A DNA stretch of 64,000 bases from a virus. A program made the translations under genes and the position numbers. The stretch's first letter is position 1. The number at the start of each line of letters is the position of its first letter. Of the stretch, positions 39,286 through 41,184 are shown piece after piece. The stretch covers positions 52,378-116,377 of the IMG/VR virus record IMGVR_UViG_3300024239_000355. One strand, given 5' to 3'. The notes beneath the pieces were generated by a model. It was not told the origin of the DNA and did no database searches. It saw only the letters and a program-made list of their open reading frames with translations.

Positions 39286-39378
39286 TTTTACCTCGGCCAA
39301 AACTACCGGGTGATAATACCAAAGCACGCCGAATCATCAAAAAAGAAAAGGGCGGGATTTCTCCCGCCCTATCTTGGC

Positions 39379-40200
39379 TTATTCAGCCGTTTCCGGTTCT
39401 GCACCATCGAAAAGGACATCCACGCGGTTCACCACTTTACGGAATGGCGGCATTTCAATCTCTGCGATTTCACGCCGTTCAACCGGGGCAGTGGGTCGTC
39501 GTCCCTCGGGGATGCGAGCAAGAACCTCAGGGGTGAGTTCCTTGATCACGGTTCTCCGCTGAACAAACGTTCCGCGTTTAAATGCAGCCGGGTAGTCATT
39601 GAAGTTGATGCCAGCCTTAGCCCACATCATTTCCTGCATTTCTTTACCCGACTTACCGTCAAGCTCCTTGTGGGAGAAAACCGACCGAGCCGCCATCGAA
39701 ACAGCGTTTTTGGTCGCGTCTACTTCTCGCCACAGAAAAGCGTTGGCGGCTTCATTCTTCGTAGGAAGCTGGAAGATGCGACAGTCAAAAACCGGTCGCG
39801 CCTTCATCACCTTCTCTGGCCAAACTTTCATGGCTTCCATCATGAATGCCGACGTTGCCATCGCCGCCAAGATGGAGGTCATCTTGAAAATTTTTCCATC
39901 GAAGAAAACCTGCGAATCGTAGCTGTCACTGTACCAGAGAAGACTTATCTCATCCGATTGAGTGTAGCCGACGCGCGCATTGGTCGCCTCGACAAGGTAC
40001 TTTACAGTCTCGATCATGCACCGAGACATGTTCACGTCATAGGGACGCTCCATGCCTTTGGTGAACTTCGAGAAGCACTTTCCGTCAATACGAGCGTAGA
40101 TCGGGAGCAACGGAATAAACCGACGCCCAGTCTCCTGGCGTTCCAGCATTTTCATGCGGTCGCCAAAATTATCCATGCTCTTTTTTTCCACTTTCGCCAT
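39379..40200 (-). CDS. tRNA(His) guanylyltransferase / Thg1-like protein
   Basis: ARIDGKCFSKFT, YTQSDEISL, PVFDCR, WREVDATKN, GINFNDYP..FKRG motifs; RBS GGAGG. Confidence 0.9.
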   Translation of the reverse strand: MAKVEKKSMDNFGDRMKMLERQETGRRFIPLLPIYARIDGKCFSKFTKGMERPYDVNMSRCMIETVKYLVEATNARVGYTQSDEISLLWYSDSYDSQVFFDGKIFKMTSILAAMATSAFMMEAMKVWPEKVMKARPVFDCRIFQLPTKNEAANAFLWREVDATKNAVSMAARSVFSHKELDGKSGKEMQEMMWAKAGINFNDYPAAFKRGTFVQRRTVIKELTPEVLARIPEGRRPTAPVERREIAEIEMPPFRKVVNRVDVLFDGAEPETAE

Positions 40201-40214
40201 GCTGTCCTCCATAC

Positions 40215-40301
40215 GGCGGGTTAAGCATAGCTCAGCGGTAGAGTTTTAGGTCTGACCCCACGATTTCTTTTGGAAGGAAATCGCTGGTCCACTCGCCACC
40301 A
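40215..40301 (+). other. Aberrant tRNA-like sequence (acceptor stem, CCA, D arm; no canonical T arm), antisense to the Thg1-like gene leader
   Basis: GGCGGGT/ACTCGCC+ACCA; TAGCTCAGCGGTAGAG; long hairpin CGATTTCT-TTTGGAA-GGAAATCG; no GTTCRA. Confidence 0.55.
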
Positions 40302-40325
40302 GTTCTCCTTTCGGAAAACAAGTGC

Positions 40326-40354
40326 ATCATAACGTTTGGTACATACAATGTCAA
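40326..40354 (-). promoter_or_regulatory. sigma70-type promoter for the Thg1-like gene
   Basis: TTGACA-N17-TATGAT. Confidence 0.7.
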
Positions 40355-40359
40355 ATACT

Positions 40360-40492
40360 AAAAAGCCCGCCAATCGCTTGGCGGGCTTTTTCCATTTAAT
40401 CGTTTGCGGCGTTAAGGAACGGGAATTTCTTACCGTTAAGCCCGGCGCAGCATGTATTAGAAGATTAAAACCCGCCATTGGCGGGTTTTAAT
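40360..40492. terminator. Two bidirectional terminators
   Basis: AAAAGCCCGCCAA/TTGGCGGGCTTTT (~40361-40392) and AAAACCCGCCA/TGGCGGGTTTT (~40467-40490). Confidence 0.75.
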
Positions 40493-40804
40493 TTACTCGA
40501 TGTGTTCGATAGCTTTACCGGGTTCGACTGTTCGCCAATCCGGCCATTTCCGTTCTTCGTTCTTCGTCAGTTTTGCATCAAGTGCTGTTGCAATTTCTTC
40601 CGGGGAAAATCCCCGGCGCCATGCACCATCACACGCCAGAAGAATAACGTCGATCCATTCAGTAAGATCGTGGGGGTCTTTTTCAATCTCTACAATCTCT
40701 TTTCGAAGATGATCAATGACCCCATCCGTTTTTTCCCCAGGACCGAACGTGCGCTCGGAGAACGCTTTTTGACGGTATAGGTGTGCAACTAGATCGAACT
40801 GCAT
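40493..40804 (-). CDS. DUF550 / MazG-like dNTP pyrophosphohydrolase
   Basis: FSERTFGPG...GVIDHLRKEIVE...EWIDVILLA.DG.WR...KL.KNE.R.WPDW. Confidence 0.8.
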   Translation of the reverse strand: MQFDLVAHLYRQKAFSERTFGPGEKTDGVIDHLRKEIVEIEKDPHDLTEWIDVILLACDGAWRRGFSPEEIATALDAKLTKNEERKWPDWRTVEPGKAIEHIE

Positions 40805-41184
40805 TAGCGGCTAAACCCCGGACCAGTCACCCCACCAACCCCACCCGGCGTAATCGGCGGAATGGTAGATGCGACCTGAATGCTGGAAGTCAATTGGCGA
40901 TACTGCGCAGCAGCATCCGACCGTGCCTTGTCCACCGTGATGATGGCGGTCTTGCTCAACGGCAGTTTGGCATCTTCGTTTACACCGAGCATGAATGGAG
41001 CCATTGCAACCATACCCTGCCCACCATGACTACCGGCGAGAACCAGGGTCAGCGGCTTGGTAATGGTCAAATGGGTAGCACTGTCCTCAACGAAACGTGC
41101 AATCACTTCTTCACCAGACAGAAGCTTGAGAGCGACAATCTCTTCCTTCGCGAATGTCGGCGTTTTGTTCTTTTCAACTAACAT
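40804..41184 (-). CDS. Conserved T4-like hypothetical protein
   Basis: IVALKLLSGEEVIARF motif. Confidence 0.6.
   Translation of the reverse strand: MLVEKNKTPTFAKEEIVALKLLSGEEVIARFVEDSATHLTITKPLTLVLAGSHGGQGMVAMAPFMLGVNEDAKLPLSKTAIITVDKARSDAAAQYRQLTSSIQVASTIPPITPGGVGGVTGPGFSR

What the first reader, a model, noticed from the sequence alone, without database searches (positions are those of the whole stretch)
40200..40354. T-armless tRNA-like sequence lying antisense within the leader of the Thg1-like gene
Seen: the plus strand has a 7-bp acceptor stem (one G.U), discriminator A, encoded CCA and a textbook D arm. It also has a 6-nt insert after the acceptor strand, one long hairpin with loop TTTGGAA and no T arm. 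The Thg1-like promoter (minus) transcribes across it, so the mRNA leader carries TGGTGGCG and CTCTACCGCTGAGCTA, complementary to tRNA 3' ends and D arms. Inference: either a decayed or minimal tRNA (possible substrate or decoy for the repair enzyme or for anticodon nucleases), or a leader that senses tRNAs or tRNA fragments by base pairing.
Basis: partly seen in the sequence, partly recalled or inferred. Interest (0 to 1): 0.6.

Follow-up and report, generated by a model that had tools for sequence, protein, structure and literature searches.

The report
tRNA-His-derived leader of phage TLP gene
The tRNA-like stretch is real, but it is not a working tRNA: it is one copy of a conserved RNA module, apparently descended from a histidine tRNA gene, that lies back-to-front in the untranslated leader of a phage tRNA-repair enzyme gene and probably controls that gene.

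Summary
The described features are all present at 40215-40301 (+). They are a 7-bp acceptor-like helix, A+CCA, a consensus D arm, one long hairpin, a 6-nt insert and no T arm. ARAGORN and Rfam do not call it a tRNA.

The new result comes from relatives. The three closest Thg1-like (TLP) genes found in metagenomes (66-72% protein identity, synonymous sites saturated) carry the same module in the same place and orientation. Two boxes are invariant: CATAGCYCA and CACTCGC(N)ACCA. The long hairpin changes by compensatory substitutions. One relative has only the boxes. None has an intact tRNA. About 170 other TLP loci lack the module.

Box B equals the 3' acceptor strand of alphaproteobacterial tRNA-His, and one relative keeps the His anticodon loop. 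I therefore read the module as tRNA-His-derived, matching the enzyme family.

Strand evidence favours the mRNA:
- Sigma-70-type promoters stand upstream of the gene (three called by the scan, one read by eye).
- A 5' hairpin with GNRA loops pairs fully only on that strand.
- Wobble pairs and folding energies lean the same way.
- No conserved promoter was found for the tRNA-sense strand.

Best reading: a selected cis-regulatory leader. A tRNA-sense small RNA is not excluded. The mechanism is inferred, and no expression data cover the element.

The parts
39379..40200 (-). Thg1-like protein (bacterial-type TLP) gene, 273 aa from the ATG at 40200. An in-frame ATG at 40212 lacks a ribosome-binding site.
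   Evidence: ORF list. Pfam Thg1 3e-28 and Thg1C 1e-5. Closest solved structure is the Bacillus thuringiensis TLP 4KGK, 2e-39. Family-invariant acidic residues D39, D83 and E84 are present.
40205..40210 (-). Shine-Dalgarno GGAGGA of the TLP gene.
   Evidence: Read. An AGG core is aligned in all four leaders.
40215..40221 (.). Partner strand of the closing helix P0. On the plus strand it is the 5' acceptor-like strand GGCGGGT. On the mRNA it lies 4 nt upstream of the Shine-Dalgarno sequence.
   Evidence: This strand is poorly conserved: one base deleted in L009, two mismatches in L006, absent in L007.
40226..40236 (.). Box A, CATAGCTCAGC. It comprises a shared inserted CA plus tRNA positions 8-16. 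On the mRNA strand it contains a conserved AUG.
   Evidence: CATAGCYCA is invariant in all four loci.
40230..40244 (.). D-arm-like hairpin, 4-bp stem with a 7-nt loop.
   Evidence: Kept in all four loci. The L006 version pairs only on the mRNA strand, through two U.G pairs. The outer pair of the window copy forms only on the plus strand.
40261..40283 (.). Hairpin 2, the anticodon-arm-like hairpin. The loop reads TTTGGAA on the plus strand.
   Evidence: Stems differ between loci by changes on both sides. L009 has the His anticodon loop TTGTGGA here. The hairpin is absent from L007.
40290..40301 (.). Box B, CACTCGCC + ACCA. On the mRNA it reads UGGU followed by GGCGAGUG, the 5' acceptor strand of tRNA-His including G-1.
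   Evidence: Invariant apart from the one base before ACCA, which is C, C, T or absent. It matches positions 66-73 of alphaproteobacterial tRNA-His 8 of 8, and no other of 43 tRNAs in one such genome.
40302..40319 (-). P1, a 7-bp hairpin with a GAAA loop at the predicted 5' end of the TLP mRNA, directly abutting box B'.
   Evidence: 21 of 21 cells paired, 5 of 7 pairs compensatory, and one U.G per sequence that would be a mismatch on the plus strand. Loops are GAAA, GUAA and GAAA.
40326..40354 (-). Sigma-70-type promoter of the TLP gene, TTGACA-17-TATGAT.
   Evidence: Equivalent sites occur in L009 (10 of 12) and L007 (11 of 12). In L006 the site is TTGACT with TATAAG, read by eye; the scan did not call it.
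40361..40392 (.). Bidirectional terminator-like hairpin that isolates the TLP unit from the upstream gene. A second one lies at 40458-40490.
   Evidence: Read. The hairpins and their T runs aligned to the terminator parts of leader models. The simple terminator scan did not list them.

Best explanation
The element is the window's copy of a conserved RNA module of about 60-115 nt. The module forms the 5' untranslated leader of a monocistronic phage Thg1-like (TLP) gene and descends from a tRNA-His gene lying in the opposite orientation.

Shown:
- The module is under purifying selection in four related phages.
- It has lost the T arm.
- It carries a shared 4-6 nt insert before U8.
- The strand with evidence of transcription and strand-specific structure is the mRNA strand.

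On that strand the order is: promoter; a 5'-terminal 7-bp GNRA hairpin (P1); box B' (UGGU plus the tRNA-His 5' acceptor strand); the mirrored anticodon hairpin; the mirrored D hairpin with box A'; a weak partner for box B'; the Shine-Dalgarno sequence.

Inferred: it is a cis-regulatory leader that ties TLP synthesis to the state of its substrate. Box B' is invariant while its partner in cis is sloppy. I take this to mean that box B' has a conserved partner in trans. The most likely partner is the exposed 3' acceptor strand plus CCA end of a 5'-damaged tRNA-His, or the TLP protein itself. Occupancy of box B' would change the fold next to the ribosome-binding site.
For: Conservation:
- The boxes are invariant in the window, L009, L006 and L007, although 4-fold sites of the adjoining genes are 23-42% identical.
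- Hairpin 2 and P1 keep pairing through changes on both sides.
- The module is absent from 164 other TLP loci scanned and from further close relatives whose gene maps leave no room for it.

mRNA strand:
- Strong sigma-70-type sites stand upstream of the gene in the window, L009 and L007. In L006 a TTGACT/TATAAG site was read by eye only.
- P1 begins 5-7 nt after the -10 hexamer, has GNRA loops, and is fully paired only on this strand.
- Over all helices the mRNA strand has 11 G.U and 7 mismatches, against 5 and 13 on the other strand.
- The leader MFE is lower on the mRNA strand in 4 of 4 loci. RNAalifold gives -15.9 against -12.6.
- No promoter-like site for the tRNA-sense strand in 3 of 4 loci.

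tRNA-His origin:
- In 301 alphaproteobacterial genomes, the only tRNAs I recognised among the listed acceptor-pattern matches are eight tRNA-His genes (12 matches were not listed).
- Box B matches positions 66-73 of tRNA-His 8 of 8. No other of 43 tRNAs in that genome scores above 6 of 8.
- L009 carries TTGTGGA in the hairpin loop, as in tRNA-His of the G-1-less alphaproteobacteria.
- L006 carries the U72-A73 signature of those tRNAs.
- TLP genes sit next to tRNA-His genes in other phages and in Gemmataceae.
Against: - No RNA data cover 40200-40355, so transcription of either strand is inferred only.
- There are only four loci, so the covariation statistics are thin.
- In the window copy itself, three G.U pairs favour the tRNA-sense strand.
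- The invariance of ACCA, and the tRNA-sense consensus of U8, A14 and GG, are explained at least as naturally by a plus-strand RNA.
- Box B carries an extra A compared with the C73-CCA end of the tRNA-His genes that match it. No tRNA-His ending exactly like box B was found in the 301 genomes.
- Global alignment does not single out tRNA-His.
- No terminator or clear anti-Shine-Dalgarno switch was found in the leader.
Confidence: 0.45

Rival explanations
1. A small RNA is made from the plus strand: a T-armless tRNA-His mimic. Archaeal TLP can bind tRNA-His through acceptor stem plus anticodon without touching the elbow. Such an RNA could therefore be a TLP ligand, whether substrate, decoy or cofactor. 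Being fully complementary to the leader, it could also act as a cis-antisense regulator of the TLP mRNA.
For: - Tool results: the tRNA-sense features are exactly the conserved ones, namely the 3' acceptor strand with A+CCA, U8-A14, and an anticodon-like arm.
- The window copy has three G.U pairs that exist only on this strand.
- The pattern of an invariant 3' strand with a degenerate 5' strand recalls tRNAs whose 5' ends are rebuilt by TLPs from the 3' strand. That comparison rests on my own knowledge of mitochondrial 5' editing.
- From a paper: PMC4820378 describes a second TLP binding mode that uses acceptor stem and His anticodon.
- A bidirectional terminator lies 60 nt downstream on the plus strand in the window.
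- L007 has a 9-of-12 promoter-like site on this strand.
Against: - No promoter-like site on this strand in the window, L009 or L006.
- P1 and the L006 and L009 helices pair properly only on the other strand.
- The 4-6 nt insert between acceptor strand and U8, and the missing T arm, preclude a normal L-shape.
- The acceptor pairing is not maintained in L006 or L007.
- L007 lacks the anticodon-like arm altogether.
- The window and L006 have U where the His anticodon has G34.
- tRNA detectors find nothing.
Confidence: 0.28
2. It is a decaying tRNA-His pseudogene that happens to lie in the leader. It has no function of its own beyond spacing the promoter from the gene.
For: - There is no T arm, and the middle part differs greatly between loci.
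- One locus has lost most of it.
- TLP genes often neighbour tRNA genes.
Against: - Neutral sites between these phages are saturated, yet two boxes of 9 and 11-12 nt are invariant.
- Two hairpins are maintained by compensatory changes.
- The shared insert and the shared T-arm loss show that the odd design is old and has been kept.
Confidence: 0.12
3. It is a chance resemblance, or a DNA-level site such as a phage attachment core copied from the 3' end of a host tRNA gene.
For: - IMG/VR classes the record as a provirus.
- From my own knowledge: attachment cores often copy tRNA 3' ends.
Against: - The module keeps a fixed place and orientation relative to the TLP start in four phages whose upstream neighbours all differ.
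- It includes a D-arm box as well as the 3' end.
- No integrase gene is adjacent.
- A 16-nt D-arm consensus plus a 7-bp helix plus ACCA is far beyond chance. Each full box occurs only once in the 195-kb genome (box A and box B allowing up to 2 mismatches); looser 11-nt box-A-like matches are scattered elsewhere.
Confidence: 0.03

Closest known systems
tRNA-His of Alphaproteobacteria. Two types were seen here. The G-1/C73 type has acceptor GCGAGUG. The type with G1.U72 and A73 belongs, from my own knowledge (Wang, Sobral & Williams 2007), to the Rhizobiales-Rhodobacterales-Caulobacterales group, which lacks G-1.
   Same: - Box B equals positions 66-73.
- Box A equals positions 8-16.
- L009 keeps the loop UUGUGGA.
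- A precedes CCA as in the A73 type, and L006 has U72-A73.
   Different: - No T arm.
- A 4-6 nt insert before U8.
- Extra sequence after the D arm.
- The anticodon stem is too long.
- The 5' acceptor strand is degenerate.
- It is not detected by ARAGORN or the Rfam tRNA model.
T-box riboswitch leaders (Rfam RF00230).
   Same: A leader of a tRNA-related gene carrying UGGN-type sequence complementary to the NCCA end of a tRNA. The proposed logic is the same: the substrate RNA is read by base pairing.
   Different: - No match to the T-box model at E<=10.
- No specifier loop or terminator/antiterminator pair.
- The complementarity runs about 12 nt into the acceptor strand, which is paired in an intact tRNA.
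- The host group differs.
tRNA-mimic operators in mRNAs of tRNA-binding enzymes, such as the E. coli thrS operator bound by ThrRS (own knowledge).
   Same: A tRNA-like fold sits next to the Shine-Dalgarno sequence of the gene for an enzyme that binds that tRNA. Autoregulation by the enzyme is a natural reading.
   Different: Here the tRNA-sense features lie on the strand opposite to the mRNA. Only the acceptor helix reads the same on both strands. Binding was not tested.
ColE1 RNA I / RNA II, a cis-antisense pair whose loops resemble tRNAs and respond to uncharged tRNA (own knowledge).
   Same: A leader and its possible antisense partner both fold into multi-hairpin, tRNA-like shapes.
   Different: That system controls plasmid replication, has no enzyme gene and shares no sequence with this module. 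An antisense transcript is not shown here.
T-armless mitochondrial tRNAs, and mitochondrial tRNA 5' editing by TLPs in amoebozoans (own knowledge).
   Same: - Acceptor stem, D arm and anticodon arm without a T arm.
- The 3' strand is conserved while the 5' strand carries mismatches, next to a TLP gene.
   Different: - Mitochondrial armless tRNAs keep the 2-nt acceptor-to-D junction and a 5-bp anticodon stem.
- ARAGORN's mitochondrial mode does not recover the proposed fold.
- The mismatches lie deeper than positions 1-3.

Membership tests
tRNA (Rfam RF00005 / ARAGORN) | Recognised by covariance or heuristic tRNA models. | tested here: not met
   No call by ARAGORN at standard or lowered thresholds. 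No RF00005 match at E<=10 in 1 kb or in 108 nt. The same search finds 5 tRNAs elsewhere in the genome.
tRNA (Rfam RF00005 / ARAGORN) | Four-arm cloverleaf with a T arm and T loop. | tested here: not met
   Only 5-7 nt lie between hairpin 2 and the 3' acceptor strand in the window, L009 and L006.
tRNA (Rfam RF00005 / ARAGORN) | 7-bp acceptor stem followed by discriminator and CCA, maintained in relatives. | tested here: inconclusive
   7 bp in the window, 6 bp plus a bulge in L009, 5 bp plus mismatches in L006, none in L007. The 3' strand and ACCA are invariant.
tRNA-His descent | Acceptor sequence, discriminator and GUG anticodon loop of tRNA-His. | tested here: inconclusive
   Box B matches tRNA-His 8 of 8 and no other tRNA type. 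UUGUGGA is present in L009 only; the window and L006 have U at position 34. Global alignment does not rank His first.
T-box riboswitch | Stem I with specifier, T-box sequence and antiterminator. | tested here: not met
   No RF00230 match. No terminator-like site in the leader.
T-armless mitochondrial-type tRNA | Acceptor stem, 2-nt junction, D arm, 5-bp anticodon stem and a short replacement loop. | tested here: not met
   The junction is 8 nt and 16 nt follow the D arm. ARAGORN -mt reports a different 61-nt fold, not this one.
Bacterial-type Thg1-like protein (the adjoining gene) | Thg1 catalytic domain with the conserved acidic residues, and nearest relatives among TLPs. | tested here: met
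   Pfam PF04446 at 3e-28. D39, D83 and E84 are invariant in 38 homologues. The best solved match is the B. thuringiensis TLP 4KGK. Activity was not tested.

The most novel reading that the evidence does not exclude
The leader is a riboregulator that reads the enzyme's own damaged substrate. Box B' on the mRNA is a copy of the tRNA-His 5' acceptor strand plus UGGU. It would pair with the 3' strand and CCA end only when a tRNA-His has lost its 5' strand. That pairing would release the weak cis helix beside the ribosome-binding site and switch on the repair enzyme.

A still bolder variant rests on the shape of the mRNA's 5' end. The triphosphate end sits at the base of a 7-bp hairpin, directly followed by box B' as a single-stranded template. 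That is itself a primer-template which the 3'-5' polymerase could extend.
Probability: 0.15. Interest if true: 0.85.

Novelty: new variant of a known kind. Interest (0 to 1): 0.6.

Why it matters
Thg1-like 3'-5' polymerases are widespread in large phages and are assumed to repair tRNA 5' ends. Nothing is known about how their expression is controlled or what they act on during infection.

A selected, tRNA-His-derived module welded to the leader of one TLP clade gives a concrete handle. It links the enzyme to tRNA-His specifically. It also offers two short invariant boxes to mutate.

It could reveal one of three things:
- a substrate-sensing leader with T-box-like logic for tRNA damage;
- a tRNA-mimic autoregulatory site;
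- an armless tRNA-like ligand of a reverse polymerase.

It also shows that judging strandedness from one copy can mislead.

Tried and rejected
**Expression**
- One search of public runs found the phage in subsurface DNA runs and, as small identical fragments, in wastewater RNA-type runs.
- The laid contigs cover parts of the TLP and upstream genes but not 40174-40355 in the RNA-type runs. They cannot show strand or ends, so nothing follows about expression of the element.
- A variant strain (X4) is identical over the element, which is uninformative.

**More homologues**
- Protein-pattern search with the single protein in IMG/VR found nothing.
- With an alignment, it gave 80 IMG/VR loci and 80 genome loci, none with the boxes.
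- Box patterns in IMG/VR and JGI metagenomes gave only chance hits in coding DNA, or an ordinary tRNA-Ala.
- blastn against deposited phages hit only the coding region.
Four returned no DNA for the asked contig, though their gene maps leave at most 72 nt upstream.
- The records behind L006 and L007 are not held, so their tRNA sets could not be read.

**Other attempts**
- Host: the phage EF-Tu is 79-83% identical to many alphaproteobacteria with no clear nearest lineage.
- Upstream ORFs: short ORFs start in box B' and at the AUG in box A'. Their frames, lengths and peptides are not conserved, and L007 shifts frame while keeping the box. I therefore rejected a leader-peptide explanation (reading).
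- Pairing of the boxes with each other, with the coding start or with the phage's own tRNAs: none found.
- No covariance model was built. With four sequences and no further candidates, it would have added nothing.
- Earlier notes of this scan hold no look-alike of the element.

Full report
**What is in the window**

- GGCGGGT (40215-40221) pairs with ACTCGCC (40291-40297) over seven pairs, one of them G.U.
- A and CCA follow at 40298-40301.
- Six extra bases follow the 5' strand.
- Then come T8-A9 and a D arm of consensus sequence (40230-40244).
- Sixteen unassigned bases follow.
- An 8-bp hairpin with loop TTTGGAA lies at 40261-40283.
- Only six bases remain before the 3' strand, so there is no T arm.

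The neighbouring minus-strand gene (39379-40200) is a Thg1-like protein:
- It matches Pfam Thg1 at 3e-28.
- The family's invariant acidic residues are present.
- Its nearest solved relative is the Bacillus thuringiensis TLP 4KGK.
- GGAGGA sits 5 nt before the ATG at 40200.
- A sigma-70-type site with 11 of 12 matches lies at 40354-40326.

The TLP mRNA must therefore cross the element.

tRNA detectors do not accept the element:
- ARAGORN finds nothing, even at lowered thresholds.
- Its mitochondrial mode proposes another, weak fold.
- Rfam gives no tRNA or T-box match at E<=10.

Single-sequence folding is not exceptional on either strand.

The window is part of a 195-kb viral record. It carries a permuted tmRNA of the alphaproteobacterial kind.

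**Relatives**

About 5,500 TLP homologues exist in the protein collection. On a tree of the best 120, the window's protein falls in a clade of six.

I could read DNA for four other members of the clade. Three of them carry the same module between a sigma-70-type promoter and the TLP start, in the same inverted orientation:
- L006, 72% protein identity.
- L009, 71%.
- L007, 66%.

Two boxes are invariant:
- Box A is CATAGCYCA.
- Box B is CACTCGC, then one variable or missing base, then ACCA.

The module differs in its middle part between loci:
- L009 and L006 have the long hairpin in the same place, but with different stem sequences that still pair.
- L009 has an extra hairpin after the D arm.
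- L007 has a short form, box A then 8 nt then box B, without the long hairpin.

No relative has an intact tRNA there.

Four-fold degenerate sites of the four TLP genes are only 23-42% identical. Unconstrained sequence is therefore saturated, and the boxes and helices must be under selection.

The module is narrow in distribution:
- It is absent from the fifth clade member read (L101).
- It is absent from the next-nearest proteins.
- It is absent from 160 further TLP loci from IMG/VR and from species genomes.
- Pattern scans of IMG/VR and JGI metagenomes gave only chance matches.

**Link to tRNA-His**

I searched 301 alphaproteobacterial genomes for a helix with the element's acceptor sequence. 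Among the listed matches, the only tRNAs I recognised were eight tRNA-His genes (12 matches were not listed).

Their sequence is G-1, GCGAGUG, UA, D arm, and so on to CACUCGC, C73, CCA.
- Box B therefore equals positions 66-73 of tRNA-His.
- Among the 43 tRNAs of one such genome, only tRNA-His matches it 8 of 8. The next best score is 6 of 8.

Further signs point the same way:
- The hairpin loop of L009 contains UUGUGGA. This is the anticodon loop of tRNA-His in two Rhizobiales genomes, whose tRNA-His has G1.U72 and A73.
- The window and L006 differ from it by one base (U for G34).
- L006 has U-A before CCA, the U72-A73 signature of that type.
- TLP genes neighbour tRNA-His genes in a phage pair (L033, L035) and in four Gemmataceae genomes, there on the same strand and as ordinary tRNAs with G-1 encoded.

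I put tRNA-His descent at about 0.7. There are three caveats:
- A global alignment does not rank tRNA-His first.
- Box B has an extra A relative to C73-CCA.
- The argument leans on 8 nt plus one loop plus the gene association.

**Which strand**

Judged from the window copy alone, the tRNA-sense strand looks better. Three G.U pairs would be A.C on the mRNA.

The family says otherwise:
- Directly after box B' on the mRNA strand lies a 7-bp hairpin, P1. It starts 5-7 nt after the -10 hexamer, so at the predicted 5' end of the mRNA.
- P1 has GAAA, GUAA and GAAA loops. All 21 cells are paired and five of seven pairs changed on both sides. Each sequence has one U.G that is a mismatch on the other strand.
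- The D-like stem of L006 pairs only on the mRNA strand.
- The outer parts of hairpin 2 in L006 and L009 also pair only on the mRNA strand.
- Over all helices the count is 69 Watson-Crick, 11 G.U and 7 mismatches for the mRNA strand, against 69, 5 and 13 for the other.
- The minimum free energy of the leader is lower on the mRNA strand in all four loci.
- RNAalifold gives -15.9 against -12.6 kcal/mol.
- A promoter-like site for the tRNA-sense strand appears only in L007, at 9 of 12 matches.

The evidence is real but thin, because it rests on four sequences. It does not exclude transcription of both strands.

**How it may work**

Shown: a selected module with two sequence-constrained boxes and structure-constrained hairpins, in the leader of a monocistronic TLP unit.

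Inferred from here on.

The closing helix between box B' and the bases just upstream of the Shine-Dalgarno sequence is weak and drifts. It is 7 bp with an A.C in the window, 6 bp plus a bulge in L009, 5 bp in L006, and absent in L007. Box B' itself never changes.

A sequence that is invariant while its cis partner is free to decay suggests a conserved partner in trans. Box B' is a copy of the tRNA-His 5' acceptor strand preceded by UGGU. It is therefore complementary to the 3' acceptor strand and CCA end. In the cell those are exposed only when the 5' strand is missing, which is the substrate state of a TLP. This is my preferred mechanism.

A second possibility is autoregulation. A helix reads the same on both strands, so the closing helix on the mRNA is also a sense copy of the tRNA-His acceptor stem beside the ribosome-binding site. 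TLP binding there would repress translation.

The main rival is a plus-strand armless tRNA-His mimic. It is attractive because archaeal TLP has a second binding mode that uses acceptor stem and His anticodon and not the elbow (PMC4820378, read). Acceptor strand and anticodon-like arm are exactly what the long forms keep. Against it stand:
- the missing promoter;
- the unpaired acceptor in L006 and L007;
- the loss of the arm in L007;
- the P1 evidence.

**Comparison with known systems and verdict**

- It is not a tRNA by any test applied, and not a T-box.
- It works most like tRNA-related leaders: T-box, or the thrS-type mimic.
- If the other strand is expressed, it works like a cis-antisense pair of the ColE1 kind.
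- The searches I ran in the paper library found no paper describing a leader or regulator of phage TLP genes.
- The earlier notes of this scan hold no look-alike of the element.

I class it as a new variant of a known kind. It is a small family and its function is unproven. It has a clear experimental handle and a specific, unexpected tie between a Thg1-family gene and a tRNA-His relic.

Noticed in passing
G000:C1:24141-32340 (same phage record, about 20 kb upstream of the window start): ARAGORN calls eight tRNA genes, only Glu (5) and Asp (3), all with encoded CCA. Several have odd D arms and long variable regions. Rfam's tRNA model accepts only five. A phage carrying many variant tRNA-Glu and tRNA-Asp genes and nothing else suggests decoys or replacements for tRNAs targeted by a host nuclease.
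   Followed up: partly
window 39616-39898: In a second subsurface sample (run X4) the same phage is identical over 2.7 kb, except for 34 substitutions packed into 283 bp inside the TLP gene. This looks like a recombination patch from a diverged allele.
   Followed up: no
window 40361-40392 and 40458-40490: Two bidirectional terminator-like hairpins stand in tandem, 65 nt apart, between the dATP/dGTP pyrophosphohydrolase-like gene and the TLP promoter. The spacer could hold a small transcript.
   Followed up: no
L129, L130, L165, L170 (Gemmataceae genomes), about 70-90 nt after the TLP stop: A TLP gene is followed on the same strand by the tRNA-His gene in four Gemmataceae genomes. The tRNA is ordinary, with G-1 encoded and C73. 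The fixed pairing of the two genes is nevertheless notable.
   Followed up: partly
window 39310-39487, 39757-40105, 40501-40819: Short contigs 100% identical to the window occur in wastewater RNA-type libraries from three studies. The same phage, first seen in subsurface samples, is therefore present in wastewater too. Whether as RNA or as DNA carry-over cannot be told.
   Followed up: no
G075 (an alphaproteobacterial genome of the sample), several contigs: One genome holds 25 matches to the acceptor pattern because it carries arrays of GGCGAGTG-like heptamer or octamer repeats in inverted pairs. This is an unrelated repeat family.
   Followed up: no
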